DNA from: Marsupella aquatica
Lineage: Eukaryota > Plantae > Marchantiophyta
DNA: 64,000 nt
Reading direction: 5' to 3'
Assembly: GCA_973895155.1 (NCBI GenBank)
Contig: OZ316898.1
Location: forward strand, 6,311,079 to 6,375,078
The position numbers and the translations under genes were made by a program. Positions 13,973-63,300 of the stretch are shown one piece after another; the first letter of the stretch is position 1; each line of letters begins with the position of its first letter. The notes under the pieces are model-generated. The model had not been told where the DNA came from and made no database searches. It saw nothing but the letters and a program-made list of their open reading frames with translations.

Positions 13973-15061
13973 TTATGATTTGGATTGAGCAACGTCGTCG
14001 AGATCCGTCGTCCTGATAATGTCCGCCCACTCTCCAAGTGATTTCGTCTCCCTCTCCAAAACTGCTCCGATATAGGGTACCGAATCGCTCCCCAACGGCA
14101 GCCTCAACGGCAGTGTCCGACCCTCGCAGCGACCACTCTTCGTCAACACTTCAACAATCAGCTGTGCCCCTTTGGCCGGGTCGCCGGGTTGCTTACCTGA
14201 CACGGCAGACACCATTTCCCTCACTGGATCCATGAAGGGCTGGAAGTCCTCGATCCTCTGCGACGCACGATGCAGGTTGTCGAGCAAATTAGTGCGGAAG
14301 GTGCCCGGTTCGATGACCGTGACCTCGATGCCCAAATGCGCTACCTCCTGCCGGAGTCCGTCCGTGATTCCAACCAGCGCAAATTGGTTCCGCTGTAGAG
14401 AGCGCTCCCGGGAAAGCTCTGCCAGCCGACTATAGAGCCGATATTGGCGATGACTACGGTCTTGCGAGAACGCATGTGGGGTAGGACAGCACGAGTGACA
14501 GAGAGTACCCCGAAGACGTTGGTTTCAAATTGGGCCCTCGTTTCTTCGTCGCTGTTAGATCAGAGTTGATACCAGTCAGACAACTGATGTTAGAAATGGA
14601 GCATTCAATTCACTCAATTCCTCATCACTGTGAGAGCGAATACAAAAAACGCAACGAGAACTTCGTATTAGAAACAGAGTCTGCAGTGAGAGGAACTTCG
14701 TAGAAAACGTTACTTCATGATGAGGGTAAGGGCATCATGTAATTGCAGTAGAAGAGGTCTCTTACCTGCATTCCTCGATTGTTCCAAGCACGCCATAACC
14801 AGCGTTGTTGACCAAAATGTCAATCGCGCCATAGATCTGCAGCGCCTCATGGATGGCCTTCTGTACCGTAGCCTCGCCCGCCGTGACGTCCAACGCGAGT
14901 GTAGCAGCGCCTGCAACCTTCAAGCTCTCGAGTTTTGTGACATTGCGACCCGTTGCGATAACTTTGTCCCCATGGGCAAGAGCAGCTCTCGCTAGCTCAT
15001 TGCCAAAGCCGGAGGAGCAGCCAGTGATGAGCCAGACTTTTGACGAAGCGATCGTGCTCAT
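13973..15061 (-). pseudogene. Classical short-chain dehydrogenase/reductase (fungal-like), 2 exons, frameshifted at the catalytic YxxxK
   Basis: Exon 1 (15061-14766) reads MSTIASSKVWLITGCSSGFG...IDILVNNAGYG, carrying TGxxxGxG and NNAG. Intron 14765-14552 is GTAAG...CTAACAG. Exon 2 is 14551-13973. The spliced length is 875 nt (3n-1): TAC AGC GGA ACC AA- TTT GCG lacks one base at about 14384. Restoring it gives YSGTKFALVGITDGLRQEVAHLGIEVTVIEPGTFRT. Confidence 0.88.
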
Positions 15062-15084
15062 TCTATTGCCTGTTGGAAATGACT

Positions 15085-15696
15085 CTAGGATTTCTCCGTG
15101 CTCGGAAGATGAATGAAGGTATTGAAGTGCTTTCAGGAACCACACTCGCTGGTAAATCAATCTAGGATTTCTCCGTGCTCGGAAGATGAATGAAAGGGAA
15201 TTGAAGTGCTTCAGCCACACTCACTGGTAAATCAATCTAGGATTTCTCCGTGCTCGGAAGATGAATGAAAGGGAATTGAAGTGCTTCAGAAACCACACTC
15301 ACTGGTAAATCAATCTAGGATTTCTCCGTGCTCGGAAGATGTATGAAAGGGAATTGAAGTGCTTCAAAAACCACACTCACTGGTAAATCAATCTTGGATT
15401 TCTCCGTGCTCAGAGGATGAATGAAAGGGAATTGAAGTGCTTCAGAAACCACACTCACTGGTAAATCAATCTTGGATTTCTCCGTGCTCAGAGGATGAAT
15501 GAAAGGGAATTGAAGTGCTTCAGAAACCACCCTCACTGGTAAATCAATCTAGGATTTCTCCGTGCTCAGAAGATTAATGAAATGGAATTGAAGTGCTTCA
15601 GAAACCACACTCACTGGTAAATCACTCTAGGATTTCTCCGTGCTCGGAAGATTAATGGAAGGGAATTGAAGTGCAGCAGAAACCACACTCACTGGT
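15085..15696. repeat. 78-bp minisatellite, 8 copies, in the 5' region of the SDR
   Basis: Unit ctaggatttctccgtgctcggaagatgaatgaaagggaattgaagtgcttcagaaaccacactcactggtaaatcaat starts at about 15085, 15162, 15237, 15315, 15393, 15471, 15549 and 15627. Confidence 0.95.
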
Positions 15697-15980
15697 CGAG
15701 CAGTTCGAACATTGATATACAGCAATGAACTAGATCCACTCAGGAAATTTTCTCATGGGTTATCTGTAACAGCGAAAGCGTTCTCACTCATGGTGGATTG
15801 CAGTCACAAAAGCTGTTGCATAAATCAATATTTTTTGTTGTGGCACTGGACCCACAGTAGCCCTTGCGTGTGCAGGAACATAGTGAGCTCGTGGAACTTG
15901 TTGTCCTCGTGGAACTTGTGTTCACATAATAAGATCTTCATAGTTAGGAGGCACATCAGAATTTATAAATCAGGGATCTT

Positions 15981-16711
15981 CATGGTGCCACCAAAGGGGG
16001 TCTTCACAAAACGAGCGACGGCATCTTCATGGTCCCATTTGGGCGTCTCCAAGCTCTGGTATACCAGGATAAAGACTTCCTATAAACTGTGTCATAACTC
16101 AAAGGGATGGTGGTGCCACAAGTGGCACTTTGTACCAGGATAAAGTATACGGCTAAGGACGGGAGTTATGGGATATACAGTCGACCCACTTATGCAGGGA
16201 GACCATAAATGGGAGAGTATATGCTGGGATGAGTGACCCACCTTAACATTATGTTAACATTATGTTAAGGTTGTCAAATATTGACAAATCATACTCTGCC
16301 ATGTGTAATGACAACATCCTCAACATCCAGACAAAACATACTTTACCATTTTTATTGATAAGATCATGAATATCCAGCTATTCCACTGGTAAACATATTA
16401 GCCTAGCAGACCGTATTCATATTCAAACATATTAGCCTAGCAGACAGTATTCATATTGTTCATTTCTAATGAGATAAAATCCAAGAGAGATGTGCTGATG
16501 TGTCAGGGTATGAGTGAACCAGAACCTGAATTGAAGACCAGCCGACCTTAACGACTATTCATAAACTCTCTCATAACTCAAGAGTCATGGCTGGTGCCAC
16601 CAAAGTGGCCCTTCACAAAACAAGCGAAGGCATCTTATGGTCCCACTAGGGCATCTCAAAGCTCTGGTATACCAGGATAAGGACTTCCCATAAACTCTCT
16701 CATAACTCAAG
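15981..16711. repeat. Dispersed direct repeat (~120 bp x2) plus short internal duplications; probable TE debris
   Basis: ggtgccaccaaag...cttcacaaaac.agcga.ggcatctt...aagctctggtataccaggataa.gacttcc.ataaact occurs at about 15981-16102 and 16586-16711. aaacatattagcctagcagac..tattcatatt occurs twice at about 16391-16457. Confidence 0.7.
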
Positions 16712-17257
16712 AGTTATTGGAGCTCGCATAAAAGTAGAGCAAGCCAGTAGTTGTGATCTCCAGTTGAAGTAAGGAAAGTTCGCAAGCTCAACACTTAACC
16801 AATAACCTGAATAACTTTCCTATAATTACAGACACAATTTTGGAATGCTTGGGGCCTGGCGTGGTGGTGGCTACTGCATTTGGGATGGCGATTGACCAAG
16901 CATCAAGGAAAAGAGATCTATATACCATCAGACTGAGGTGAGGCCATAACCCTTGTCTTATGGGGAGTCAATGTCTTCAACCCATTTTTCAAATCCTTAA
17001 TTTGGTCCTATAACCAGAGTTATGATATAGACCATGAATCCGTAACTTTCAGCCACAGCCTGCCTTTGCGATGCCCTACTAAAGTGGCATAGACTTTTCA
17101 AACCAGCAGAGTCAGCACTAGCCAGGACACCTCAAACCTGACCATAGATAACTTTCTGTGCCCAAAAGTACCAGTTTTGACATTGGTTGCAAGTTGTAAA
17201 CCACCAATTGTGAGTCTGCCACTTTGGTTTTGGGAAAACCTATGTGACCGTGATTGA

Positions 17258-18130
17258 CCTAACCAGGACCTCACCTGGTGCATATTAGCCACCAACTGTG
17301 ATCTAGTATCACTCAACAATGGAACATTCTCCAAAATGTATGGAGGAGATATATGATGATGCGCCTGCAAATACCTCATGACTCGCAGCATCTCCCAAAA
17401 CATGTGGGAATGATGGTCCTTTAGACCAGATCCAGTGCCTGCAAAGGAATGGCCCTGGCATGGCCAGCCATCAAGCACTAAGTGTATCTCACCTACTCGA
17501 GCAAAATCTGGCGCCCCCAACAATGAGATATCTGTAGGTAATGCATGCACATAGCCCCAAATAGCTGATAAGGGCAGTAACTCGGGAAATTGTTGATACA
17601 ATCTAGCAACATGGCAAAGAGACACACACCTAGCAGTCTCATCTCTCTCCACATATAGATATTGCTGCACTCTAATACCATCCTGTAAGATAGCAACTAA
17701 ACCGATACTCATGCCACCAAATTGTTGAGCATAGACGACATTCGTAACGGCAAGCCCATGAACCATCCAACGCACAATAGTCGACACAGAGAGATACGTG
17801 GTTCACCTCCACATGAGGCTACATCCACGGGAACACACAAGAGCTTTACTGTACTCTAGGCCGACCGGCCATACCAAGCATCCACAGCACAAACTCTCCC
17901 TATCTCTCAACTAGCTCTGTAACAATGAGCCTAAGTTCCACCAGGGTCTGGCATCAGCCCTGGCTATATGCACAACAGCACTACCGCTAACATTAGCTAA
18001 GTCCTAACCCGAGTTAGACTAACTGTGGTTAGCTCAAAAGTAACAAGACTAGAGCAATATCTAACACAAATAACTCTAGCATGTGAATACCCTCTCGGGA
18101 CATGTCCACAAAATGGGTGTGGTGTCCAAT
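17258..18130 (-). pseudogene. C5 cytosine DNA methyltransferase domain fragment (retrotransposon-associated type), interrupted by a solo LTR and 3'-truncated
   Basis: After removing the LTR, motif I reads EGIHMLELFGGMSIGL, followed by YLYVERD (II), LPTDISLL (III), catalytic GWPCQGHS (IV) and YILENVP (VI). Similarity ends at about HQVRSWLG; motifs VIII-X are absent. No introns. Confidence 0.85.
17723..18066. mobile_element. Solo LTR (344 bp, Copia-like) with perfect 5-bp TSD CAAAT
   Basis: It begins TGTTGAG (17723) and ends CTAACA (18066), with CAAAT at 17718-17722 and 18067-18071. The internal acacagagagatacgtggttcacc...ggctacatccac resembles Copia LTRs read antisense. Excising it restores the DNMT frame (ELF|GG). 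Confidence 0.9.
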
Positions 18131-19092
18131 GGCGACATAGTAATCAAACTGGAGCAGCAACTTGGAAGTTTTCATGAGCGTAAAGGTTTCATGAGCTTAA
18201 ACCTGGAACGGTTTGTGAGCTTTCTTGGAGGCTAGATATATATTATCGTGCCAAAGGGCAAAAAATGCTGAACCGGGAGACATGATCCCAATGGCAAAAA
18301 CAACCCATGAAGGGAAGGAAAAGAGGCTAGAACTCCTGCCTAGACATGCATTATAATACCTAATTTATGTTTGGGAAATGGTTAATATTTGTGGGCAAAA
18401 ATAAATTTAAAAAATTATTTGTGGACAATAGATTATGGGAATAGCAAGGGCCTCCAAAGTTGTTTACATGTACTTACTTGCCTTCCTAACAGAATTTACT
18501 AAATGCAGAAAGGATATATATTACACTAGCCCAATGCCCATCACAATTGTCATTTCACCCATGTAATTACTGATCTGACAATGTCAGGCATTCAACAACA
18601 ATGTACATTCAAGTGGGACAAGATAATACATGATGAGATTGGGGATTGAAGTGTCACAGGTTTGGTTGAGTGCTTATATATGGCTACAAAAATCTTAGTT
18701 GTGATCAGGATACTTGTCGCAATCGTTCTTATTGTTACAAAAATGACCAGCCAAAAAATAAAGATGAGCACATTTTGCACTAGTGAATTTATTCAAACTT
18801 GGCCCACAAAATCCAGGGTTAAACTACTTCTGCCACTTGCACAATGTTTGCCAATTCTTGAAAAATTAAACTGCACCATCAAATGAGTAGGGCAAATTAC
18901 TGGATATCTTGTCTGTGAACTTTGGGGAGGAATGGTTAGCTGAGAGGGTGAGTGAGTATGAAAGCAAGTTGAGGGTGCAAGAAATTTATCTGCATTGGTT
19001 TCTCTGACTTCTACTTGGCAGGGAAGCGGTCTGAGGGAGCTAAGATTGGTGTCATGTGTACTATATGGTTTGGTTGTTGCCTGTTCTAGATC

Positions 19093-19372
19093 GAGAGTTG
19101 ACTATCAAAAATCTTAGGAACCACGTGCGATCCAAAATATGTATTTTTGATAGAAATTAACTAAATTTCTAAAAAACATAGAAGGAAAAAGAAGGTATTA
19201 TAAACTCATGCTTATAGATTATTCTCTAATATATACCTTTTATAAAATAAAATAGGTTATTAATATTGAAAATGAAGAATATTCTTAAAATATTTTCTTT
19301 ATAAAATAGGTCTATTTATATTAGGCTAGGATCGCATGTGATACCCCAAAATATACATTGAGTTAACCCCCC
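19093..19372. mobile_element. ~280-bp AT-rich MITE, with further copies at ~20680-20961 and ~22266-22910
   Basis: Imperfect ~45-bp TIRs: (ggggg)gttgac...ccac(a/g)tgcgatcc on the left and ggatcgcatgtg...gttaacccccc on the right. Confidence 0.7.
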
Positions 19373-22300
19373 GAGATCTAGTAATGCTTCTAGAATTCTT
19401 TCACATAATTTTTTGAGCTTTTGTTCTCTGTTGTTGTTCATGTGATCAGTAGCTGCAATGCAATAAACCTTCGTTCCAGGGTGTTCAACAGAGTACCTAG
19501 AGAAGTGCTAGAGAGGTTAGTGCCCACCTATCTCTAGTTTTTCACTCTTATTTTTCTTCCTTGCATTGTGGACCTGAGTATTGGCTTGGCTTTAAGAGCA
19601 GATTTTATTGACATTTGGCAAATCATGACTCTTCTTTTTATGTTTGATATTTTATTGTTGTTTCTAGAGTTTGGAGCCCAATCTTATTAGGAATGTATTT
19701 ATAGGTTAGTGTTTAATCAAGGTGACTAATATTAGTTACATATCAAGTGTGAGTGTGAATTCAGGCAATGAAAGGAGTCAAAGGAAGGAAATGCAAAGAG
19801 ACACATGAGGTTAGTATCTGTTCAATTAAATTTCTCCAACTCAAATGGAGAAAAATAACAGTTGGGTTTATTGAGAATAAAAGAATAAAAACTTACTAAT
19901 CAAGTTTTTTTTTATAAACTAAAATGACTCTGTATTGGGTTTTGGGACTTGACAAGTGTTGTCTCTTGTGTGCCTTTTCTGCAGAGCATTTGTCTTACTT
20001 GGAAGGACAATGCTAGGGAGTCTATCACCTCCGAGACACTACAACTAATTTGACAGATTGCCCCTGGGCTTACTATGGACGACCCTGCAATTGTGGTGCA
20101 GGTTACAGATCAACATGTTGTTCACGCAATACTTGGTTTGACATTATTTTGTTCCAGCTGGTTTTTAACAGGGACCCACTCAACAGGTTTCTTATGATAG
20201 ATTTAGGTCTTGGTTAGTTACACAGGCTCACTTGAGTTCTGGAGTGAGTGTTGCCTAGCAGATTGATGCTTCGCACACCACTTGTTGGCAACATCCCTCT
20301 CTTGATCAGATGCTTGACATAGTGTATGTGAGATGGCAGCATGCACATTGGTTAGGTGCCATCCACGACGCCAGATATCCTAGTCATGTTTGCCTGGTCC
20401 TGTGCATGATAGGCTCACACAGTGGGCGTGCTAGTATGGGGATAGTGCCTCACGTTTTCTATTGAGACTTAATGCTTGCTATTGCCAGTATGTTGGTTGG
20501 TTTGGATAGGGACTAGTCCTGTTATTGTCATCATTACTTGTTCAGTTTTAGATAGGTGGGATTGACTCCAGTTTCAAAGGCACATCGTTTCTTTTTCTAG
20601 TTTTTTGACATTTTGATACAATCACAGTGTGATTGATCAGTTGCAATGCCCTTTTTTCCACCGTTGGCTTCATGCTCTTGGGGGGTTGACTGTAAAAAAT
20701 CTTAGGAACCACATGCGATCCAAAATAGGTATTTTTGATAGAAATTAGCTAAATTTTTAAAAAGCATAAGAAGCAAAAGAAGGTATTATAAACTCATATT
20801 TAAAGAATAATCTATAATATATACCTTTTATAAAGTAAAATTAGTAATTAATTTTGAAAATAAAGAATGTTTTTGAAATATTCCTATTATAAAATAAGTG
20901 TGTTTATATTAGGCTAGGATCACACGTGGTACCCCAAAATATACATTTAGTTAAAAACCCTGAGATCTAGTAATGCTTCTAGAATTCCTTCACATAATTT
21001 TTTGAGCTTTTGTTCTCTGTTGTTGTTCATGTGATCAGCAGCTGCAATGCAATAAACCTTTGTTCCAGGGTGTTCAACAGAGTACCTAGAGCAGTGCTAG
21101 AGAGGTTAGTGCCCACCTATCTCTAGTTTTTCGCTCTTATTTTTTTCCTTGCATTGTGGACCTGAGTATTGGCTTGACTTTAAGAGCAGATTTTGTTGAC
21201 ATTTGGCAAATCATGACTCTCTTCTTTTTATGTTTGATATTTTATTGTTGTTTCTAGAGTTTGGAGCCCAATCTTATTAGGAATGTATTTATAGTTTAGG
21301 GTTTAATCAAGGTGACTAATATTAGTTACATATCAAGTGTGAGTGTGAATTCAGGCAATGAAAGGAGTCAAAGGAAGGAAATGCAAAGCGACACGTACAT
21401 GAGGTTACACATGAGGTTAGTATCTGTTCAATTAAATTTCTCCAACTCAAATGGAGAAAAATAACAGTTGGGTTTATTGAAATAAAAGAATAAAAACTTA
21501 CTAATCAAGTTTTTTTTTATAAACTAAAATGACTCTGTATTGGATTTTGGGATTTGACAAGTGTTGTCTCTTGTGTGCCTTTTCTGTAGAGCATTTGTCT
21601 TACTTGGGAGGACAACGCTAAGGAGTCTATCACCTCCGAGACACTACAACTAATTTGATAGATTGCCCCTGGGCTTACTATGGACGACCCTGCAATTGTG
21701 GTGCAGGTTACAGATCAGCATGTTGTTCACGCAACACTTGGTTTGACATTTGTTCAAGCTGGTTTGTAGCAGGGACCCACTCCTCAGGTTTCTTACGATA
21801 GATTTAGGGCTTGGTTAGTTACACAGGCTCACCTGAGGCCTAGCAGATTGATGCTCCGCACACCACTTGCTGGTAACATCTCTCTCTTGCTGAGATGCTT
21901 GACATAGTGTATGTGGGATGGCAACATATGCATTGGTTAGGTGCCATCCAGGACGCCAGATATCCTAGTCGTGTTTGCCTGGTCCTGTGCATGATAGGCA
22001 TAGGATGTGGGCGTGCTAGTATGGGGATAGTGCCCCACATTTTCTATTGAGACTTGATGCTTGCTGCTGCCAGTATGGTGGTTGGTTTGGATAGGGACTA
22101 GTCCTGTTATTGTCATCACTACTTGTTCAATTTTAGATAGGTGGGATGGACTCCAGTTTCAAAGGCACATCATATCTTTTTCTAGTTCTTTGACACTTTG
22201 GTACGATCACAGTGTGATTGATCAGTTGCAGTGCCATTTTTTCCACCGTTGGTTTCATGTTCTTGGGGGGTTGACTATAGAAAATCTTAGGAACCACGTG

Positions 22301-22464
22301 CGATCCAAAATATGTATTTTTGACAAAAATTAGCTAAATGTTTAAAAAGCATAGGAAGCAAAAGAAGAGATTATAAACTCATATTTAAAGAATACTCTCC
22401 AATACATACCTTTTGTAAAGCAAAATAGATAATTAATATTGAAAATAAAGAATGTTTTTGAAAT

Positions 22465-22831
22465 TTATTCACCCTATTCATTAAAAGTGTATATTATTTT
22501 GTTCACTTTTAGGCCTCTAAATGTTCACTTTTTATTCTCTAAATGTACACTTTTTATTCTCTAAATGTACACTTTTTAAACCCAAAAGGTACACTATGAT
22601 GCAATACTCTACACCTAAATGATTAATTGGAAACCTAAGAGGGCAAAAATGATCTTGACTATAAAGAGTCTCATCCTAGTTCATTTACAAAGGATAAACA
22701 TGGTGGTACATTTGATGACCATCAACTTTATTTCTTGTCCAATTGTACACTTTTTCAAGGCCAAATGTACACTTTCTAGTGCCCAAATGTTGAATAATAA
22801 TTAACTTTTAATGAATAAATTATAATGAGAA
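22465..22831. mobile_element. Second MITE nested in the third copy of the 280-bp MITE
   Basis: About 365 bp absent from copies 1 and 2. Perfect 14-bp inverted repeat tattcattaaaagt (22475-22488) / acttttaatgaata (22804-22817). Confidence 0.7.
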
Positions 22832-22921
22832 TTCCCATTATAAAATATGTGTGTTTATATTAGGCTAGTATTGCACGTGGTACCCCAAAATATACACTAA
22901 GTTAACCCCCGAGACTACGAG

Positions 22922-23881
22922 ATGGCGAGTGAGGAAAGGAAGACCAGGAAGCTTCCCGTGAATTTTGCTCAAGAGTTATATGGTGAATACACCTTTCAGA
23001 TTTTGTCTTATTCAAAGTTTTGGTGTCTTATATTTTTATTTCAATGTGCCTTATCAAGGGGCAGCCTGTGTATAATGTACATTTTTATTTAATTTATGGA
23101 CCCCTTTAATTTTAAATCTAGAGTACTTTGAACTTATTGTGGCAGCCCCTTTATAAATTTTGATGTTTGTGATTTATCAGAGATGAAGGAATGGCTACAG
23201 TACACCACTTGAACAAAGTATTCTCATGAATGAGAGAAATGGTTCTCATTGTGTCTTAAGTTCTTCTTATGTCTTTTTTTCCTAAGTTTATGGTTTTTAT
23301 TGAAATGAGTGTCATTCATGAGTACATTGAATTAAGTGTAGACATCGTAGCATCCTTGATTGTACTTTTCATTAGTAGCTGTGCACCAATCTTTCTAGTT
23401 ATGTTCTCATATTTTATTTACTTTCAAATCACTACAAGACAAAAACTCAAACATTACAAGACAAAAACTCAAACATGTTCCACCATGCTATATTGAGAGT
23501 ATGGAACCTTGGATGGGGACTCAGGGGGCCATTAATCCTTCACCAAATCAGGTGGTGGATACCGGAAAGGTGTAGGAGGAGGCTCACATTGAGAGCGAGC
23601 AGACCCCTGAAGGACCAGCCAGCAAAATTTTGGGGAACGACCTGGAGGTTGATTCTCCTCCACCTGTTCGAATGGAACCCTCCTCTCCAGGAGCTCATGG
23701 AGCACAACGTCGAACACCACCTGTAGGACTTGAGGATAGAGGCATCAAGAAAAGTCGACGAGAGAGACTTGACGACCAATTCAAAAAGACAAGTGCTAAC
23801 TTCTTGGAATTTCTGGGAAAAGACTCAGAGCGCAAAAGTAGACTGGAGGAAACAAATAGAACCTGGGTTGCAAACAGATGA
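22922..23881 (+). pseudogene. Myb/SANT(trihelix)-like fragment, possibly a PIF/Harbinger ORF1 relic
   Basis: MASEERKTRKLPVNFAQELY(GT donor) joins ESMEPWMGTQGAINPSPNQVVDTG, then an in-frame TAG and a low-complexity/coiled tail. This resembles the C-terminal side of Myb_DNA-bind_4-type domains. The acceptor is degenerate. Confidence 0.4.
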
Positions 23882-24682
23882 TTGTGATTTGCCCTCTCCC
23901 CGTAGCCGAGAAATTGAACTGAATTGTATCGTCTCCCGTGTGCATTTAGCTCAGTTTTCGTCGCATTCGTTAAGTCTTCTGTTGATTTCGTCATTGCTGG
24001 TCTCAGTTGATTCTGTCGAGGGCGTCGGATGCACTGTTAGTGGTTTCTTGTCAGCTCTGAATTTCGAAAGCTTGAGGGAGGTCAATTCTCTCTTCCATGA
24101 CCTCGTTGGGAAGTCGTTTGGAAAAGTCTGGATCTTGAGTGAAATATTGAATCCGACACTCCGCGAACTGAACACGAATGCCTTTGAGCCAACAAGTCTA
24201 ATGTTGCTTTATGGCACCAGGTTTGTTGTTGCTTTATGGCACCCTAAACTGTGTTCTAGTATGTTTCTTTTGGGTCCTTTTTGTTTTTCTTCTCTCGTCC
24301 GTTGATCTAGTTTCTAGTCTGCTTTCCTTCTTAGGTTTTCGTCCTGTCTTCAGTTTTCATCTGGAAGTACACCCGACTAGAAATATTCCCAGGAAAGCGT
24401 ACCGGTAAGGGAGAGCGACCATCTCCTGGTTGCGTGCCCCTGCTTAGAAGCGAATCGCATCTTTGTAGGCTTGTTGGCATACAGGTGAAATGGTTCTGAA
24501 ATGTCATGGATTTCCTCACACTTATTGTATCATAGAAGGAGGACATATGCAATCCTTGTTCTCTCTGGGACGACCCCGAGTACAACGAACTGGCAATACT
24601 TGAGTCCAGGACACTCAAACTCTTACTGATCTCGTATGTAAGAATGGTATTCAATCTACTTGTATGCTCTGTTTCTGTGCAG

Positions 24683-25665
24683 TTGGCGTTGAATGAGTAT
24701 GATGACTTCGATGATGGGGACCTGGATGATGATGATCCCTTTGCAAGAGGTCACGCTGATATCTTTCAATTCAGCAGTGTTCTTTCAGAATTCTAAGACG
24801 ACAAGGACATCTACTCAGAAAAGTATGAGACCATAGCTGAGTCACAGGATTCCTGGCGCCCGTTGTTCTCAAAACTCTGATACCGTAGGAGGAAAAACAG
24901 CTAATACCGATATGGTTGTAAATGTAGGAGTTGAGGATATTGTTGTGAAAAGAACTTTAGAGATGGGACACCGTGATTCCGAAGGCGAGGACGTGGCTCT
25001 GGTACTGGAAAGTGAGGAGGATAGAGACGAGTGGGATTGTGAAACTGTAGTGTCAATGTATTGAACCTGGACAATCACCTAGCTAAAATTAGTGCCCCTG
25101 GAAAGTCGAAACTCAGGCCTTCCTTGCAAGGCATAGAAAAAGCTGAAATCATTCGGTTAAGTGGAAAGCAGCGTTTGCCTGTAGATTATCTCCCAAAGCG
25201 AGGAGACGAAGACAGGCAGCGTGGGAAGCCTGTTCGTAAGGATGCCATTTCTTCTGCAAAGGTAGCAGGCGCTCGAGCTGGTGAGACACCCGAAGAGAAG
25301 AAAGCTCGGAAGGTAATTCTCCTGTTCCCGTCTCCCGTGTGGGAGCGTGTTCATGACTGGATTTAAGAGCCACATGGCTAACCGTTTGATAATGTCGATT
25401 CATCTCTCGGTTAAGATTGCCTTGCCCTTGATAGAAGGACTTGATGGCTTTGCTTGATCCGATGTTGTGACGAAGGTGAGAAAAGCATTTCTGGGCATGG
25501 AAACAAATTCTGACTTCTTGTGGTCTCCCTTGCAGGCATCAATAAAAGAAAATAGGAGAGGCACGCTTAGCAAAGAAGAGCCTCAAGCTATGTTATAAAG
25601 ATGAAGCTTAGAGAGCTCAGCATGGGGCTGCAACAATGGGCCCCAACGCCATCCATCTACCGTAG
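24683..25665 (+). pseudogene. LTV1: LTV1 (40S ribosome biogenesis factor) 3'-half pseudogene with one retained intron
   Basis: LALNEYDDFDDGDLDDDDPFARG; EWDCETVVSMY/NLDNHLAKISAPG; IIRLSGKQRLPVDYLP; ETPEEKKARK|ASIKE...EARLAKKSLKLCYKDEA. Lesions: TAA at 24794-96, frameshift at about 25061, TAG at 25609-11. Intron 25313-25535. 5' exons not found. Confidence 0.85.
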
Positions 25666-26895
25666 ATGTGGGGGCAGTTGTTTTAAGATGAATAAAGTTG
25701 TCCCTCAGTGGCTCACAATTCAAGAACTTGACACATGAATTGTCCATCCCCAAGACGTGCAGCTTTTGCAATGAGGGATTTCATAAACTTGACACATGAA
25801 TTGTCCATCCCCAAGAAGTGCAACTTTTGCAATGAGGGATTTCGTACACGGGAGAGACTACAATGTTAAAGGTTGTTTGTACCACTGGTGATATATTCGT
25901 GGTGAACGTAAAAATTCCTTCTACAATTCCTTTTCTACAATTCTCCCTTCTCCTTTCTGTCAGTTGCGTCCATGGCCCGTAGGCTCCTGAGAATGCAACA
26001 AAATTAGATTTTAGTCGATGGCGTCTTTAGATGAACATGATATTTGGGATCCTTGTGTCAGTATTTCAGGAGATACATGAAAAGAATCGAAATAGGTATA
26101 CTCGTAGTACGTGATGAGTGTTATAAGAGTCGCTGGACGTTGCTCTACTGTAGGTTATTGCAGAAGTCTTCGGCTCTGATGGCAGAGAATGCGATACAGG
26201 GAAAGCTAAATCAATTCGGAGTGGTCGAGGAAGGAAGCGAAGATGTGCAGCTCGAATTCACGTTCCCAGTCTTCACGTCAGACTAATCTTGACGGCCACC
26301 AGAAGTCTTTGCTTAAGGCGTCTTGTTAGAGTGGCTTGGTTTCTGTCTCAAGGGAAAATGTCTTCGACCCCAAAAAGCATCCAAGTAAAGTACATCGAAT
26401 TGTTTGTTTAGTTACAGAAAACAATTCAGTTTCGGGACCCTCATCTCTTGGTCGGGTCCAAATTTTGGTCGACTAGATTTGAGATAACATAATGCTTCTC
26501 CTGGACGCAGTCAAATAATGTCTTCAATGGTCTGGTGACGAGAATCAGACTTACCATCCTTTTACAGTTCTGAGCCACCTGATTCTTGGTGCCGATCTGG
26601 CCCAGTCCTCGATTTTCTCGGTGTTGTCCTCAATGTGGGTTGTCCGTGTATTTTCCTAAGTTTAAGTCTTGCCACATAGCTATCTATCTCCGTGCAAAAT
26701 AATTTGAAATGTTCATGTAGGTGTACAATAATCCTCGCTTATAGGAAGCACTTATAAACTTCGTGTGGCTGCCCATTGGGTGTACATCCAAAACCCTTAC
26801 CACTCACCAGCGCCTGGTGTTCCAGAATAGGCCATGCAGAACACATGTATTTTAGTGCCGTAATTTCTGTTGAACTTCCATATAAAGGGCGATAG

Positions 26896-27129
<234 letters not shown>

Positions 27130-27320
27130 TAGCTCACCACTAATTATACATGAGCGAGTCGATCGAAGAGCACAAAACAGCCACAGCCAATGTTATCTCC
27201 ATGATGAATCTCTCATGGCTGATGGCCAACTACTCACAAAACATAAAAGCTGAATCAGATGATCTAAAATGGATAATAATTTATTACATATCAGCACTCT
27301 TTGGCAATAGCACCTCGGTA

Positions 27321-27424
27321 CAGTAGTGGCGGGAGATTTCTTAGTCCAGAGAGATTTCTTAGTCCAAATTTGGACATCGTTTTTTCTAATATAATTTGAA
27401 CTAAGAAAGCTCCTGACACTACTG
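27321..27424. mobile_element. Small Tc1/mariner-type MITE (hairpin)
   Basis: TA|CAGTAGTGGCGGGAGATTTCTTAGTCCA...TGAACTAAGAAAGCTCCTGACACTACTG|TA: about 30-bp imperfect TIR starting CAGT, flanked by TA. Confidence 0.7.
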
Positions 27425-27759
27425 TACCAGATTCGGCAGCTTTTTACCTCCAGGCACCGTTTTTCAAAGATACCACTCTACATGAATACGAGACTACACC
27501 AGGGACAAGCAATCCACTTCCCCTAAAATGAATCTCAAGACTTATATTCATCATTTAAAGCTGAGCCACTGGAGACTCAGATTGGCTAAGTTGCAGACCC
27601 GCTATATTTGACTTGCCACAGCTTTTCCATACAGCATAATAAAGACCTCAAGATGCACGCGGGACTAGTTGTGCTGGTCTTGCATGTTGTAAAGGCAGTT
27701 AAGTTTGATTGCTTAGATCGTGAAGCTCAAATGGTGAATATGAACACTGAAGACGACCA

Positions 27760-28595
27760 TCAAGTCCACTTGGTATTGAGGGGTTTTGGCTTCTTACCTG
27801 TATGGCCAAGACTGTTCACAAGAGCCCTTCGAGTACAGATAGTGAACATGTTAGGGTGCATGACCTTTAGTTTGACGAGTACATATGGAAAACTTAATTG
27901 ATCACGGGCAGTGAAACGCATTACTTCATTGAACCAATGAATAGGTTCGTAAGGGGTGTGTGCTCCCGAACTATCACGGATGCCTCGGCCAATGCTGCAC
28001 ATCAAATACACAGGAGAATACATCAATCTCAAACTTCTCACCTATCGTAGTAACATTGATACCTAACAATAATAAGATTTGTGTTGGGGAAAAACCAACA
28101 ATATAATAGCTAATTACAGATGTTTCAAAAGCTATGAAGTCTATTAAGGTAGTCTCAAAAGCCAACTATGGTGTTCCACAGTAATTATTGACACGCGTCT
28201 GCATCTGGGTGGTGGGAACTACGACCAGAGACGGGACTGTGCATGTTTATCTACAAAGATCCTTTTCATTCAGGCAAGTATCAAAAAGGAAACTCAAGAC
28301 TAGGATAGGATATGTCACCTTTGTGACCATCAAACTGTGCATTTTCCGGGAAATTTTCTTTGCGATACCAGTCAAGTTGGATGGCGACTTCTTCAGGTAA
28401 AGCCTTGTTCTTTTTTACGATAGCTTCTCCTTCTTTGAAGACACAGCTACGACCTCCGTGCTCTGATATTGCGAACACAAAATTCGGCCGTACTAGGAGA
28501 GCTTCAATGACCCCACTGGGATCTCGTCTGAATTGGGATTTTGAGTCCACCCAAATGGAGTATCTCGCTTGTGGAAATAACCGGTGGTTCAAAAG
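27760..28595 (-). pseudogene. DUF616 (TOD1/MUCI70-type glycosyltransferase-like) 3' two-exon fragment with frameshift
   Basis: Exon 28595-28319 reads LLNHRLFPQARYSIWVDSKSQFRRDP...AISEHGGRSCVFKEGEAIVKKNKA. Exon 27994-27760 reads ALAEASVIVREHTPLTNLF/WFNEVMRFTARDQLSFPYVL, with a frameshift at about 27937 (about 7 nt of the usual MCL missing). No upstream exons recognisable. Confidence 0.85.
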
Positions 28596-29288
28596 CTGCA
28601 CAGGAAAATACGTTTCTAGTCAATATAGCAAACGCAGTGGCCCACGGTACTGGAAATTGCAGACGTGCACAGAGATGTACTGTATTAATTAATGAGTGTC
28701 TCATATTGTATTGTATTTGTGAGCATCTGGTATCCTTAAATATTGATTGATTATAATTTGTGGGGAAAACTTGACGTGAAAGAAAATGTGATGGGAGGTC
28801 CACAATCTCCGAGGACAGCATGGGAGTGAGTCATTTTAGAGTGTATGTAACAATTCATCAGATCTGATGGGAGATCCATAATCGTGCGAGCATAGCAAGG
28901 AAATGAGTCCTTTCGAGTGTAATTATGCAACAAAATTGTATTGGATACTCCACGTGAGTAAGGTCTAGTGTGACCAAGCGTGTAACATGAAATATAAGAC
29001 AAAGGCATTTTAACTATCGTCGCAAATATAGACATTATAGTGCGACAAAAATGAAGCCAAACATGGAAGGCTAGTAATTTCTCTTGTATCTGACAGTATC
29101 GATCTCGTACTCAATCTGCACTAACTAAAAGCTCTGCACAGAATATAAACATATATGTGAGGAACAAATTTACTGCTACATTGGTGATGAACGCCAGCCG
29201 TATTGATGGTAACCCATTCTCTGCTTGTTGAACGCTTTGTTGATCGGTTTCAACATGTGGCGTCCCGCTCACTGAAGTAAGTGGAGAA

Positions 29289-32200
29289 TCACTGGATGTG
29301 ATGCACAAGCGGCAACACGTGATGCACCAAGGAATCAGTCACTACTTCAGGTAGATGTGATGGAAAAGGCAAAACAATGTTTTCTCCCGAGGCAAGCTTG
29401 GGAGGGATGTGAGCTGCGGATTCTACAAAATCTGAGGAAGTTCTATCTAGCCATTTAACCCCTCCCGACAGGCACGCAGCGACAGTGTGAGCTGCGTTTT
29501 CAGCTCCTACTTGCATGAGGCGTTCCAGCAATGTGGCGGCGTCTTCGGCCTCCTCGTATCCGAGCTCGATGTCGGATCCGACTGCTACAAGGGCTGACTC
29601 TAAGCCCGTTGCTATAGCAGCCAATATATGAGTACCTACGTTGAACACTACGGCTGTTAAATCAGACGAGTGAGTTGCTTTAAGAGCCTCACTAAAAACT
29701 TCGGAGTAGGGAGATGCTGTAGGATCAGCAATGTGGTTAGGGCCGTGCGGCGCAAGATGCTGAGCCGCGGACACATCGACCTTCGCAATGTGCGAAGTTA
29801 CTGAACTACCACTAGATGTAGTGCTAGGTAGACTATTTGCTCCTTGAACATTTGTTGATGGCGCCCCTGCACTGGCACTATTGACGCCAGGAGAACCCGT
29901 TGAGGTTGTCCCAGTTGTTGGCGTCACAATAGTACTAGAAACGGTGGTCAGTAGGAGAGATTTTATTGCTCCGAGTTTAATTTTAACTTCGGCCAGGAGC
30001 CGCTTTGCCTGAGCCGCATAGTAAGGAAACTTCAGCTGAGAGGTGAGAAGAGCTCCAGGAAAGTACTCATGACTTCTTTCATCTGCTGTCGATTTATCCT
30101 TGGCCGGTGCGACTAAATCGGATTGAGAGACTGTCGATCCTTCTCCGTTACCCGACTTCGGATTTGAGCTTGTCGAGTCAGGACCTTTCGTCTGATTTCC
30201 AAGCGACCTAATATCTACATTGGTTGTTGTCATTTGAGCGTATATGCTGGTGATCATGATCACGAATCCACCGATCAGAGCAGATTCCGCGGGCATCTCA
30301 CGATGTGCGAAGAAGGATAAAAATGCGCCCCAGACAGGTATAGTTGTATATACAAGCGTGGCAGTTGAAGCATGTATTGACCGCAAACCATGCAGCTCCA
30401 ACCAGCTACAAAAGCCAAAACACACCAATCCGTTGTAAATCAATGGAGCCCATGGGAGACTTTGAATCTGGTCGGCAATATCATGCGCTTGGAACGCAGT
30501 AACGTCGAATGTGGTGAATGTTTCCCAACCCAGACTAAGAGTCGCCAACACCCCACACTGCACAGCGTTTAAGAGAAGCGGGTCAAACCGGCCACTATGA
30601 TATTCTGATCTGAAAATATGTAACGCAGATATGATCGATATCGCCATCCCCCACAAATCCCCAATCTGCGGGCAGGAAATACCTCTCCACCCGAACCCTT
30701 CCTCCTCCAACAGACCCATACCTGCACATGATTTCGACGTTCATTAGATTGGCTCAAACCTACGTTCAAGTTCATCAAAATCTCCAAGGTAACGACGACA
30801 CGCTTTATCTATCTATCTGTATCGACGCCTATATATGCAGCGAACCATGAACGTATAATACTCACGTTACAGCATGGAACAAACGAACGAACTTACAATT
30901 AACAACCAGCGTACTCAGGTTTTTAACACTCGAGAACACACGACAACGGGAAACCTGGCAATATATCTACAGTCAGTCTTGTGTCTAAATACAGATTTCA
31001 ACAGATCTGGTGGATGACAGCGTACCTGAGATAGCCGCGATTGTTGCAAATCGTGTTAATGTGGAACCCGAGCGGCGTCCCGCAAATATTTCCATGATCG
31101 GTATGAAGATCACCTGTAAGTTAATTGCCAAGTCAAAAGTCATTTTCAACGTTTGGTAAGAAATCTGTGATCATGTCAATGAGCAGTATGTCACGATATT
31201 TAAAATCTGGATGAGGACTTTACGGGTCACCGAATCCTACGTTCTTGGTCTGTGGAAGATGCAAAAATTGAACATGTTCCAAAGAAGGTCATATATACAT
31301 TTAAAAAATTGCAACTGGTTGCGGTAATCTTACCGTAAAGGCCAAAAGAAGAGCTGCACTGCTCGATGATCCGCTTGACGGATTGCAGGAGTCAACAACG
31401 GTTGCAGCGAATGCTAGTCCTCCGAGCTCTATACCTGCTTGTAAGAGCTCCATATTTCTGTCTTTCAATGCGGTCGCTAAAGCTGGTGTGAAAAAAAGTA
31501 ATGCTGAAGTAAACCGCACCAACGAAGTGAGACTGACTGGCAGGGAAGGAGCCGCATCCGCAACAATTCCGTTAGCCACGTTACTGGATCCGTACAAAGC
31601 AGCTAAGACATTCAGGAGAATTAAACTTCCCATTCTCCTCTTTTCCTGTTTTCTCTTCCATATCTTCCTCAATGATGTTCCTTCCCTACGGTCGATTCTT
31701 TCCCTCGAACAGAGTTGGGAGTCAATTCTTTCCATCGAACAGAGTTGGGAGGATCGGACCTCCAGTGGCTCAGCCAATGTCGACGTTGAAAATGGACCCG
31801 CTTTGCCTTCTTGCCGACGCATGAACTGTGAATCAGAGCGTCTGTTCGTTAACTTCCGGCAAAGGGTTATATATGTCGGTAGCATCAGTACACTTATAAT
31901 AGTACTAGAGAGCTACTGTAGTATTTGTTTGCAATGGTGAAGCAAGGAACAACAGCTGCCATGGACCTTTCTAGTAATGTAGACACGTCGAAATTCCCGG
32001 CCTATCTAATTCTTTCCGTCAAAGTTACGTATCAAAGAACTGGAAAATTAAACAGCCTAGAATCAGAGAAGCACTCTCACCAAATCAGTGGTTGAAAAGT
32101 GTGGATCCCCGCGTGGATCTTGAACTTCCCAGCTTTTCGACTCTGGCTCATCTTTCCCCTCACGGACCACCAACTCGCGCAAGACTTGCAAATTGTTTTC

Positions 32201-58249: not shown

Positions 58250-59545
58250 GCTCAACCTTGAGTGTCCTAACTCTCATGTCATGTCACTACAAACTCCAAC
58301 CCTCCCTGACCTAACTCTCCTAGCATGCATGCAAAGTCATGTCATATATTTACAACCTTGACCTTTCAGTGCCCTAACACTCCTAAGGGGCTTCATGTAA
58401 TGTCTTTACAAACTCAAGCCCTCAGTGCCCTAACTCTCCTGACCCACACACCTAACTCTCCTAGCAAGCATGCAACATCACGTCCTGCCTTTACAAACTC
58501 GAGCCCTCAGTGCCCTAACTCTCATAACACGCATGTAACTTCATGTCATCCCCTTACAAACTCAGTCCCTCAGTGCCCTAGCTCTCCTAACAAGCATGGA
58601 CCTTCATGTCCTGCCCTTACCACCTCAACCCCTGCATGCCCTAACTCTCCTAGCTAAGACACATGCAACTTCATGTCATGTCATTACAAGCTCACCCCCT
58701 CAGTGCCCTAACTCTCCTAACACACATGGAACTTCATTTCCTGCCTTTACGAACTCAACCCCTCAGTGCCCTAACTCTCCTAATGCGCATGCAACTCTAT
58801 CTCATGTCATTACAAACTCAACCCCTCAGTGCCCTAACTCTCCTAACACGCACACAAGTTCATGTAATCTCCTTACAATTCAACCCCTCAGTGCCCTAAC
58901 TCTCCTAACATGAATGGAACTTCATGTCCTGCCCTTATAACCTAAACTCCTCTCCTAAAACGCTTGCAACTTCATCTCATTTCGTTACAAACTCAACCTC
59001 TCAGTGCTGCAACTCTCCTAACACCCATCAAACTTCCTGTAATGTTCATACAAACTCACCCCTCAGTTTCCTGACTCTCCTAACATGCATACAACTTCAT
59101 GTCCTGCCTTTACAAACTCAACCCCTAAGGGCCCTAACTCTCCTAACACGCATGCGATTTGATGTCCTTGCCTTTACAAACTCAAACCCTCAGTGCCCTA
59201 GCTCTCCTAATACACCTGCAACTTCATGTCATGTTGTTACAAACTCAACCCCCTCAGTGCCCTCACTCTCCTAACACGCATGCAACTTCATGTCATCTTG
59301 TTACAAACTCACCCCTCAGTGCCCTGACTCTCCTAACACGCATGCAACTTCATGTCCTTGCCTTTAAATACTCAGCTCCTCACTGCCCTAACTCTCCTAA
59401 CACGCATGCAACTTCATGTCCTTGCCTTTACAGACTCAACCCCTCAGTGTCCTAACTCTCCTAACACGCATGCAACTTCATGTCGACTAGTTGCAAACTC
59501 ACCCCTCGGTGCCCTGACTCTGCTAACACGTATGCAACTTCAACG
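58250..59545. repeat. ~60-bp C-rich minisatellite, about 20 diverged copies, between GRV2 and RAP74
   Basis: Consensus about ttacaaactcaacccctcagtgccctaactctcctaacacgcatgcaacttcatgtc(atg/ctg). It accounts for the repetitive ORFs at 58.3-59.6 kb. Confidence 0.95.
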
Positions 59546-60343: not shown

Positions 60344-63300
60344 ATGGCGCTACCGGAGCCTCTGGTGTTGAAGGCGAATTGTAATGGATGTGGAACGACG
60401 ACCGATCTTTACGGAAGCAATTGCAAGCATATGACACTGTGTATCCCATGTGGGAAGTCGTTGGTGGAAACTAGTGGCACGTGTACCGAGTGTAATGTTC
60501 CCGTGACTCGTCTCATTCGGGTAGGTGATATGTTGCCTTCATAAATCGGGATTGCGGAATTTTAAAATAGAATGAGTTCTGAGTATGGAAAATACAGAAT
60601 ATTATGAGGTTTAGGGTTTCGAGCTTGTCTCTTTCGGTAATGCGGTCTCGAAAGGTGATTTGGGAGATAATTTTAGGGGTCTCTATGTAAGTGCACAGTG
60701 GGTAAACAGCAGTTTCTACATTCCTTCGGTTTCAGCTTTAGGTATGACCCTTTGTTGAAGTGTCTCGTGTTGCATTTTTGGCACAGGAATATAATGTAAA
60801 GCATCATGCAGTGAACAAGAATTACTTTGTGGGGAGATTTCATCAGGGAGTTCCACACTACTCGAAAAAGAAGAACTCGGAAGCTAGATGGAGCATGCAA
60901 CACGAGGGACTTCAAGGGAGGCAGTTGACTGATGCATTGAGGGTACTCTTCTGCTTTGTATGAGTTTGTGAATCGTCGTGTCTGGCTCGAGTTGCGCGAC
61001 ATTTATCCTTAAAACCCAGGACGGACAATTACACCCTTCTTCCTCTTGGGCTCAATTGAAGTTAATCTCGGTATTTTATTCTAGATCAAGCAAAGATTTC
61101 GTCTGGATGGTGAGATGTTAATTGTCCCTTCTCTCTAGCGATGGACACACGTCGGAACTACCCAGACAAGTTTCTGTATATCCCATTCCTTCATACCACT
61201 TGACTTTAGTGCTTTACCTCCAAAGGTTACTACAAGCTGGACTTACTGAGGGTGCCACCCTCCGATTTTGAGAAGAACAGATAATTTATCAGTTGGTTTC
61301 CTAACTTTACGAACAATCTGCCGTTCTCTAGGAAAAGTACAAGAACAAGCCTTGGTTGTTGGAGGATGACATCGGGAAACAGCAGTTCACAGGGCAACTG
61401 GAAGGTGGACAACAAGCGACCTACTTTCTGCTGATTATGCAAGGATCTGACTTTCTAGCCCTCCCAGCTGGGAATTGGTAAGGATTCTCTATTTCAGGTT
61501 GACACGAGTTCGGTGTCTCTGATCATAGAATTATGCTCAAATAAGGTGCCTGAGTGATAAGGAATGGGCTAATATCGCTTTAATTTTGAATATCTAGCTT
61601 ATCTCCCATTCCTAACAAACTTTTGGTACTTCAGCGTACTACAATCAAATTTGATGTGTTGATGCATTTATATCCAGGTATAATTTTCACAAGGTGGCTC
61701 ATTACAAGCAACTGACTCTGGAGGAGGCAGAGGAGCAGATGAAAAATAGACGGAAAACAGCAGATGGATACCAAAGATGGATGATGAAGGCAGCCAACAC
61801 AGGCGCAGCAGCGTTTGGGGTAGGTGACAGTGAACAAATTGGAGGGGTCGGTGGATCTGGTGGTCGTGTGAAGCGAGAGGATGAAGATGGCAATGGGGAT
61901 GATTCTGATAAAGCAGAAGAAGACGAGGAAGAGGAAGAGGCACGAAAAAATAGACTTGGTATGAACAAGCCAGGTGGTGACGAAGATGGGGAGGAGCCTG
62001 CGCTAGATCTTGACCTTGACGACGATGAAGGCGAAAAGGGTGAGCCAAAACAAAATGTTTCCAATTGCGTACTTTCTGTACTCTGTGAAGTTTCAGTGCT
62101 ATTGTCAATAATTACGTCATTCTTTTCCTGGATGCATATGTGGGAACAGCGCTGTCTTAAGAGCCTGAGGTTGTGACCATACAGAGCAAATAATGAGTTT
62201 ACTTGTTCGGATCTCTGTAATGCTTTGTGCGCGAGCAAGTTTTGCTCTCAATCTGTTCACCATCATGAGTCCATCTTGACGGAACGAATCAGCTCTCTTT
62301 TTCTAAAAAAAATTGAAAATGTTGTGTGTTTGTCAGGTGATGATTGGGAACATGAAGAGACGTTCACGGATGATGATGAAGCTGTTGGCAATGATGCTGA
62401 CGAAAGAGAGGATCAAGTGAATCCTGAAGTACCACCCCCTCCTGAAATCAAGCAGGTCAGTAAAATGAAATCTGACTAACAATTGTCTAACCCTGTACCG
62501 CATGCATTTTTCAACTGAGCTATGAAAGGGCTGATGAAAGGATGAGGCGATGTTGGAGAGGCTCCCATGGTGGGGTGTTCTGAGATTAGAAAGATTTATA
62601 AGGGGTTTCATAAATCTCACATGTTCCTTGGAAGGAAAGATACCACGTCTCCTCACTAGTGGCATTTATGTTGTATGATTTGCCCTATATCAGGAGGAGG
62701 AGGATGAAGAGGAAGATCAAGAAAACCCACAAGAAGAACCGGGTGGTTTGAGTAAATCCGGCAAGGAGTTGAAAAAGTTGCTCGGCAAAGCTGCTAAGGA
62801 GGATGACTCTGACGGAGGAGATGTAACCGATGATGGGACAGATGAGGATGTAAGCTTCTCTCCTGTAAAATATGTTTCTTTCTTAGTTGTCAGTGGATTG
62901 CTTCCTGTGGAGACGCTGTCCCCTGTTATCAATTGTGGTGTATACAAGATTTGCTGTAGAAAGAGTTGTAGTGTAGAAAGACTTTTTTGGATCAAAACAA
63001 GGGCCTTTCTAGTTGTATTTAATGAATATGTGCAGCCTCATAATAAGTTAACCTTACCTAGATATTTCATATCCACTTGGACTATATCATCGCTCTGTTG
63101 ATCCCAGCATTGACTAATAGACGTTTCGCCCTCAGTGAAATCCAGGTTCATGAGTTGATAACACATTGTTTTGGGTGCTTTTTCAACCAGGTGGATTTGG
63201 ATAACGAGGATATTGGAATGTCTCCAGTGCTGGCTCCTACGCGCAAAGAGGGACCAAAAGAGGAGCCCATTGATGGTGGTACTCCAGCAAAAGCTGCACC

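What the first reader, a model, noticed from the sequence alone, without database searches (positions are those of the whole stretch)
17258..18130. Relic of a transposon-type C5 DNA methyltransferase, split in its SAM-binding motif
Seen: an intronless ORF with C5-MTase motifs I (MLELFGG, recovered only after removing the solo LTR), II, III, IV (GWPCQGHS) and VI (ENV). It has no recognisable BAH, chromo, UBA or RFTS parts and sits among TE debris. Established: MET1, CMT and DRM are multi-domain or permuted, and cytosine methyltransferases carried inside retrotransposons have been reported in dinoflagellates and charophyte algae. Inference: this is a fragment of a DNMT-carrying retroelement (Gypsy- or DIRS-type). 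That implies this land-plant lineage hosted, or still hosts, elements encoding their own methylation machinery, a system little explored in land plants.
Basis: partly seen in the sequence, partly recalled or inferred. Interest (0 to 1): 0.85.

Follow-up and report, generated by a model that had tools for sequence, protein, structure and literature searches.

The report
Dead liverwort retrotransposon DNMT3 fragment
This is a broken scrap, in a likely leafy-liverwort genome, of a DNA-methylating enzyme gene whose relatives sit inside Gypsy-type jumping genes of liverworts, peat mosses and green algae, where the intact enzyme likely methylates the element's own new DNA copies.

Summary
Observation confirmed. 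Window 17257-17721 (minus strand) holds 155 open codons with C5-methyltransferase motifs I to VI. A 344-bp TG..CA repeat with a 5-bp target duplication splits motif I. Homology continues to about 18153 in another frame and stops at 17257, so motifs VIII-X are missing and this copy is dead. A host gene points to a leafy liverwort (94% to Calypogeia fissa). The nearest relatives (43-66% identical) are Marchantia, Calypogeia and Sphagnum proteins; related proteins and one contig show the order Gag-CCHC-protease-DNMT-RT-RNase H-integrase-PHD. The family's profile and fold match DNMT3A/B best. Diverged copies occur in runs of the same organism, some apparently without the insertion. The element is Ty3/Gypsy, not DIRS, and resembles KnitGypsy-Dnmt3 of Klebsormidium. 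The same domain family reaches Mesostigma, Closterium and the chlorophyte Scenedesmus, where it sits between RNase H and integrase. My nine paper searches found no description for land plants, although recent papers speak of 'streptophyte Gypsy-DNMT3'. Activity is untested, and the algal enzyme was inactive in yeast. This locus has no RT or element ends, and the scan already notes fuller copies in this genome. New member of a known kind; moderate interest.

The parts
17257..17721 (-). DNMT3-like catalytic domain, end of motif I to just past motif VI; 155 open codons; truncated before motifs VIII-X
   Evidence: Pfam PF00145; 58-66% identity over 155 of 155 residues without gaps to 9 bryophyte-clade proteins; profile match ends at 17254
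17239..17256 (-). Possible remnant of the start of motif VIII (SRSHR against SRAHR) after a gap of about 10 codons; uncertain
   Evidence: tblastn extends to 17239 with a gap; the profile search does not
17718..17722 (.). Left copy of the 5-bp target-site duplication CAAAT
17723..18066 (.). 344-bp high-copy insertion with TG..CA ends, most likely a solo LTR of an unrelated family
   Evidence: Ends and duplication; 167, 135 and 86 contigs in X1, X2, X3 leave at 17723 into unlike flanks, agreement 0.34-0.35; no second copy in the window and no match to L001
18067..18071 (.). Right copy of the target-site duplication
18067..18093 (-). Start of motif I (EGIHMLELF)
   Evidence: 78% DNA identity to L001 1167-1193 over 27 nt; translation
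18094..18153 (-). End of the protease-DNMT linker of the polyprotein (SPLDTTPILW), in a different frame from motif I
   Evidence: hhalign probability 82%, E 1.1e-5 against A1; blastn 77% over 18137-18067; one relative aligns faintly up to 18222, E 6e-5

Best explanation
This is a dead, truncated piece of a DNMT3-type cytosine methyltransferase domain from a Ty3/Gypsy retrotransposon family of bryophytes, split by a second insertion that is likely a solo LTR; in intact family members the enzyme likely methylates the element's own reverse-transcribed DNA. Shown here: the motifs, the insertion with its duplication, the frame change, the truncation, the diverged copies in the same organism, and the domain order in relatives (Gag-CCHC-protease-linker-DNMT, then RT-RNase H-integrase-PHD). 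Inferred: (1) in bryophytes the DNMT ends the Gag-protease reading frame and RT follows an in-frame stop, so the enzyme would be made in capsid-like amounts and packaged (about 55%); (2) it would methylate new cDNA, most likely at CG, so that copies arrive pre-marked (about 50%); (3) the integrase PHD finger would read histones to choose insertion sites (about 40%). This copy itself cannot work: it lacks motifs VIII-X.
For: Nearest proteins: 29 hits at 43-66% identity; the 17 named ones are Marchantia polymorpha (15), Calypogeia fissa and Sphagnum troendelagicum. Of 20 scanned, 2 carry RT and 3 RNase H with the DNMT. Contig L001 has DNMT, RT, RNase H, integrase zinc finger, rve and PHD in that order. 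Of 26 long relatives picked from 150 listed, 19 carry RT, 19 rve and 16 PHD. The family profile hits DNMT3A at E 4.7e-25, DRM at 1.6e-15, M.HhaI at 1.9e-9 and DNMT2 at 2.2e-7. The model of relative P0002 (pLDDT 93.7) matches DNMT3A/B at Z 28.9, rmsd 2.6, 274 aligned. Same organism: 73 contigs laid in X1, 70 of them under 95% alike; 4 leave at 17721 into letters that match window 18071-18100 at 21 of 30 places, the best match in the window. 19 of 40 listed differences to these copies are synonymous against 22-29% expected (p 0.0004-0.009). Catalytic C is kept in 145 of 147 aligned relatives and motif-VI E in 148 of 148. 7 of 13 long proteins (4 clusters) keep motifs IV, VI, VIII, IX, X; the longest member of each cluster ends 72-92 residues after motif X. 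P0023 and P0333 end where L001 has an in-frame TAG before RT.
Against: No gag, protease, RT, RNase H, integrase or element end lies in the window, so the element is inferred from relatives. No host DNMT3 was available for the tree, the trees are quick ones without bootstrap, and the outgroup is one long branch. KnitGypsy-Dnmt3 gave no methylation in yeast, which the authors call inconclusive. L001 has two further stops near the junction that look like decay, so the programmed stop rests on shared end-points. Some relatives carry DNMT and RT in one frame (P0185, P0208, P0215). The synonymous test uses 40 of 51 rows chosen by the tool from contigs at least 80% alike. P0015 and P0021 are gene models that may be spliced by prediction.
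Confidence: 0.82

Rival explanations
1. It is a processed pseudogene or fragment of the liverwort's own DNMT3 gene.
For: The fold and profile are DNMT3-like; non-flowering plants have host DNMT3 genes (PMC6453930).
Against: Host DNMT3s have an N-terminal catalytic domain and C-terminal DUF3444; here the upstream neighbour is the retroelement linker, no DUF3444 was found in six frames of 15300-29300, the closest proteins carry Gag, CCHC and protease parts, and many diverged copies exist.
Confidence: 0.03
2. The identity is right but the domain is a passenger or a non-catalytic DNA/RNA binder, and does not methylate cDNA.
For: The Klebsormidium enzyme was inactive in yeast. Motif IV is E-C rather than P-C in 71 of 148 relatives. 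No activity was tested here.
Against: Catalytic C, motif-VI E and the AHRxR motif are strongly kept across the family; bryophyte members keep GWPCQG; the related SymbioDIRS-Dnmt3 methylates CG in yeast.
Confidence: 0.25
3. The piece comes from a DIRS element with a tyrosine recombinase.
For: SymbioDIRS elements carry Dnmt3, and KnitGypsy-Dnmt3 has DIRS-like repeats; L001 has a 115-nt repeat pair after the PHD.
Against: Relatives carry H2C2 and rve integrase domains; no tyrosine-recombinase family appears in the Pfam lists of the 26 and 21 proteins scanned.
Confidence: 0.02
4. It is a bacterial methyltransferase, by contamination or recent transfer.
For: The fragment alone gives only faint hits to M.HhaI among solved structures (E 0.44); many relatives come from metagenome contigs.
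Against: It lies among intron-containing plant genes, carries a plant-type repeat insertion, and its named relatives are plant and algal.
Confidence: 0.01

Closest known systems
KnitGypsy-Dnmt3 of Klebsormidium nitens (de Mendoza et al. 2018, PMC5890265; read: passages, sections 9-11, a term search of 3 supplementary files; the supplementary figures were too large to read); called streptophyte Gypsy-DNMT3 in bioRxiv 10.64898/2026.05.21.726589 (passages)
   Same: Intronless, unpermuted DNMT3-type domain inside a Gypsy polyprotein. K. nitens proteins KFL_013780020 and KFL_014710010 are found by the family profile, with protease before the DNMT; I take them to be KnitGypsy-Dnmt3 copies.
   Different: Host is a land plant. 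Only 31-33% identity to the K. nitens proteins against 63-66% to named bryophyte ones; a separate clade. This copy is truncated and interrupted. The bryophyte-type element ends in a PHD finger, which the passages I read do not mention.
SymbioDIRS-Dnmt3 and SymbioLINE-Dnmt of Symbiodinium (same paper)
   Same: A retroelement carries a C5 methyltransferase; SymbioDIRS-Dnmt3 is DNMT3-type and methylates CG in yeast.
   Different: Other retroelement classes (tyrosine recombinase or LINE); described as independent captures.
Host DNMT3 of non-flowering plants (PpDNMT3a/b; PMC6453930, passages) and human DNMT3A/B
   Same: Motif order I-X and fold: Z 28.9 to DNMT3A/B for relative P0002.
   Different: No DUF3444, PWWP or ADD; no introns; embedded in a polyprotein; 22-27% identity to the human enzymes.
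EpiLTRs of Cymbomonas and Euglena (bioRxiv 10.64898/2026.05.21.726589, passages)
   Same: LTR retrotransposons with a DNMT and a chromatin-reader domain.
   Different: Their DNMT is sister to DNMT4, comes with an adenine methyltransferase and a chromodomain, and is stated to be a separate capture.

Membership tests
Streptophyte Gypsy-DNMT3 (KnitGypsy-Dnmt3 type) | DNMT3-type domain with unpermuted motif order | tested here: met
   Motifs I-VI in order in the window; family profile and model match DNMT3A/B best
Streptophyte Gypsy-DNMT3 (KnitGypsy-Dnmt3 type) | No introns | tested here: met
   155 of 155 residues align without gaps to 9 bryophyte-clade proteins
Streptophyte Gypsy-DNMT3 (KnitGypsy-Dnmt3 type) | Domain lies in a Gypsy polyprotein with RT, RNase H and DDE integrase | tested here: met
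   Met for close relatives (L001, 61% identical; P0015, P0021). In the window only the linker survives; RT and integrase are absent
Streptophyte Gypsy-DNMT3 (KnitGypsy-Dnmt3 type) | Groups with the K. nitens element DNMTs apart from host DNMT3 | tested here: inconclusive
   A 41-row group (SH-aLRT 91) holds the window, bryophytes, Klebsormidium, Closterium and Mesostigma, but no host DNMT3 was in the tree
Streptophyte Gypsy-DNMT3 (KnitGypsy-Dnmt3 type) | DIRS-like split terminal repeats (A-coding-B-A-B) | tested here: inconclusive
   No element ends in the window. L001 has a 115-nt repeat pair around a 338-nt spacer after the PHD, which fits B-A-B, but its 5' end is missing
Streptophyte Gypsy-DNMT3 (KnitGypsy-Dnmt3 type) | Purifying selection among copies | tested here: inconclusive
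   19 of 40 listed differences synonymous against 22-29% expected; rows chosen by the tool, no proper Ka/Ks
Streptophyte Gypsy-DNMT3 (KnitGypsy-Dnmt3 type) | Cytosine methyltransferase activity | not testable with these tools
   Needs an assay; this copy lacks motifs VIII-X
Host plant DNMT3 | C-terminal DUF3444 and multi-exon gene | tested here: not met
   No DUF3444 in six frames of 15300-29300; polyprotein linker upstream
DRM | Permuted motif order (VI-X before I-V; recalled) and UBA domains | tested here: not met
   Motif VI follows IV directly; no UBA hit
MET1 / CMT | BAH domains, and a chromodomain inside the catalytic domain of CMT (recalled) | tested here: not met
   No such Pfam hit; motifs II-IV are contiguous as in the relatives
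DIRS-Dnmt3 | Tyrosine recombinase | tested here: not met
   Relatives carry H2C2 and rve integrase domains instead
Solo LTR (the insertion) | TG..CA ends with a 4-6 bp target duplication | tested here: met
   TGTT..AACA, CAAAT twice
Solo LTR (the insertion) | Same sequence flanks a full LTR element elsewhere | not testable with these tools
   No genome held; only its high repetition and shared left boundary were seen
Phygy clade of REXdb | RT/RNase H/integrase phylogeny; NCGN insertion preference (PMC6317226, passages) | not tested
   No reference sequences on hand; a lead only

The most novel reading that the evidence does not exclude
One ancient Ty3/Gypsy lineage carrying a DNMT3 domain and a PHD finger runs through the whole green lineage, from chlorophytes to liverworts and peat mosses, rather than being a Klebsormidium-specific capture. 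The domain moved within the element (between RNase H and integrase in the Scenedesmus-type clade; at the end of Gag-protease in streptophytes). In bryophytes a leaky stop makes it in capsid-like amounts and it methylates new cDNA, so a self-methylating retrotransposon can be studied in Marchantia.
Probability: 0.4. Interest if true: 0.7.

Novelty: new member of a known kind. Interest (0 to 1): 0.4.

Why it matters
Why a transposon keeps the enzyme class that hosts use to silence it was left open by the 2018 paper, in algae with few genetic tools. Uninterrupted reading frames of this family in Marchantia would make the question testable in a model plant. The copies also inflate DNMT counts in bryophyte genome annotations. 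This locus itself is only a fossil witness; the value lies in the family.

Tried and rejected
No RNA holder was listed; this says nothing on expression. Summed contig depth is not a copy number and was used only as a sign of repetition. The fragment alone gave nothing significant among solved structures. A first fold on 10 sequences failed (pLDDT 33); the second on 66 worked. DNMT1 and CMT chains were not listed; lists filled by DNMT3 do not exclude them. The careful tree did not finish; the quick tree is reported. P0317, first taken for a host DNMT3, is an element protein. The protein atlas gave no result. L002 and L003 were weak matches and were not studied. No named vascular-plant protein appeared; these searches are word-limited, so this is weak. 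CpG depletion of the piece (6 seen, 23.5 expected) is matched by 14 of 137 window tiles and was not used. RecQ-like and KDZ-like words noticed by eye at 16850-17240 had no Pfam support. No tRNA in the window and no Rfam family in 15000-24000. Papers PMC12730594 and PMC12885004 (passages) held nothing on this family.

Full report
What is in the window. The minus strand of 17721-17257 is open for 155 codons and holds C5-methyltransferase motifs from the end of I to VI; Pfam PF00145 matches at E 2.4e-7. A 344-bp segment, 17723-18066, begins TGTT, ends AACA and is flanked by CAAAT on both sides. Beyond it, 18093-18067 reads EGIHMLELF, and 18153-18094 reads SPLDTTPILW in another frame. At the other end a profile of 29 relatives stops matching at 17254. 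Motifs VIII-X are absent, and six-frame Pfam scans of 15300-29300 found no retroelement domain; eight long polyproteins match the window only at the DNMT. The copy is dead.

The host. A TFIIF-alpha exon at 61676-62041 is 94% identical to Calypogeia fissa, 71% to Marchantia and 66-67% to Sphagnum (best 120 of 430 listed). The genome is likely that of a leafy liverwort; this rests on one gene.

The insertion. In three public runs that hold the stretch, 167, 135 and 86 contigs leave the sequence exactly at 17723 into unlike flanks, and summed depth over the insertion is about four orders above the flanks. It has no second copy in the window and no match to the DNMT element L001. Contigs of X1-X4 run from the DNMT piece into the insertion's first bases. 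A solo LTR of another family is the best reading; a full parent element was not seen.

The family in the same organism. On 17080-17744, 73 contigs were laid in X1, 70 of them under 95% alike. Four leave at 17721 into letters that match window 18071-18100 at 21 of 30 places, the best match anywhere in the window (next best 19). These look like copies without the insertion. Two leave at 17258 into letters that by eye read like the relatives' next residues, so the truncation is particular to this copy. Of 40 listed differences (51 found), 19 are synonymous against 22-29% expected (p 0.0004-0.009), a hint of past selection on the protein.

The relatives. The fragment finds 29 longer proteins at 43-66% identity; the named ones are from Marchantia polymorpha, Calypogeia fissa and Sphagnum troendelagicum. 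Of 20 scanned, 2 carry RT, 3 RNase H, and one each a weak gag or protease match. Contig L001 (61% identical, 1 of 3 loci) has DNMT, RT, RNase H, integrase zinc finger, rve core and PHD in that order, followed by a 115-nt repeat pair. A profile search of 1.84 billion representatives gave 229 clusters at E 1e-30 or better. Of 26 long ones that I picked from the 150 listed, 19 carry RT, 19 rve and 16 PHD. Named members include Klebsormidium nitens, Closterium and Scenedesmus, Mesostigma viride and Sphagnum jensenii; 30 clusters were looked up and most are unnamed. Of 198 proteins classed, 44 have RT before the DNMT, 6 after it, 29 a protease motif before it without RT, and 119 could not be classed.

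Kind of enzyme. The family profile ranks DNMT3A (E 4.7e-25) above DRM (1.6e-15), M.HhaI (1.9e-9) and DNMT2 (2.2e-7) (same order for DNMT3 and DRM). A model of relative P0002 (pLDDT 93.7) matches DNMT3A/B at Z 28.9, rmsd 2.6, 274 residues; the best bacterial chain scores 25.7. In quick trees the window sits inside an 11-row bryophyte-type group (SH-aLRT 99), within a 41-row group with Klebsormidium, Closterium and Mesostigma (91), apart from a 19-row group of RT-first elements that includes Scenedesmus (97) (62 rows chosen from 198). No host DNMT3 was in the tree, so a single capture is not shown.

How it likely works. Seven of 13 long proteins (four clusters) keep motifs IV, VI, VIII, IX and X, and the longest member of each cluster ends 72-92 residues after motif X. 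P0023 and P0333 end exactly where L001 has an in-frame TAG with RT following in frame. I infer that the DNMT closes the Gag-protease frame, is made in larger amounts than RT and is packaged. By analogy with SymbioDIRS-Dnmt3, which methylates CG in yeast (PMC5890265), it would methylate new cDNA. Against this: the Klebsormidium enzyme was inactive in the same assay, L001 has other stops that look like decay, and some relatives have DNMT and RT in one frame.

What is known. De Mendoza et al. 2018 describe KnitGypsy-Dnmt3 as an acquisition in the K. nitens lineage; a term search of its readable supplements found Physcomitrella but not Marchantia or Sphagnum, and the supplementary figures could not be read. 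PMC12344493 and bioRxiv 10.64898/2026.05.21.726589 (passages; their supplements not seen) mention such elements in 'streptophytes', which may already include land plants. Nine searches of the open library found no description in liverworts, mosses or chlorophytes; subscription papers are not covered. Unchecked notes of this scan record the family many times, three of them in this genome with fuller copies; they are leads, not support.

Verdict. It is a new member of a known kind. The family is of real interest; this 0.55-kb scrap adds little of its own. Interest 0.4.

Noticed in passing
window 26917-27099 (+): Fragment like plastid rpoC2 (Pfam PF04998, E 9e-12) between nuclear genes; probably a plastid DNA insertion.
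   Followed up: no
window 15077-15696: Tandem array of 8 copies of a 78-bp unit, 94% matches, running into the 5' end of a short-chain dehydrogenase gene (13973-15220, minus); looks like an amplified promoter or 5' leader.
   Followed up: no
window 19097-22900: About 1.59-kb unit repeated two to three times; its start at 19097 is a shared boundary of many contigs, so likely another mobile element.
   Followed up: no
window 18157-18507: A second repeated stretch directly upstream of the DNMT linker, with raised depth and internal back-joints; not identified.
   Followed up: partly
window 27802-28598 (-): TOD1/MUCI70 glycosyltransferase-like exons (PF04765).
   Followed up: no
L001 6513-7080: 115-nt direct repeat pair around a 338-nt spacer just after the PHD finger and a G run; fits the DIRS-like B-A-B end reported for KnitGypsy-Dnmt3.
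   Followed up: partly
P0231, P0162 and related proteins: A large clade, including Scenedesmus pol, has the same DNMT between RNase H and integrase, often with E-C in place of P-C in motif IV (28 of 44 RT-first proteins).
   Followed up: partly
PMC6317226: Moss Phygy elements prefer NCGN target sites; whether the DNMT-bearing family is Phygy was not tested.
   Followed up: no
window 58257-59505: Degenerate array of about 63-bp units.
   Followed up: no
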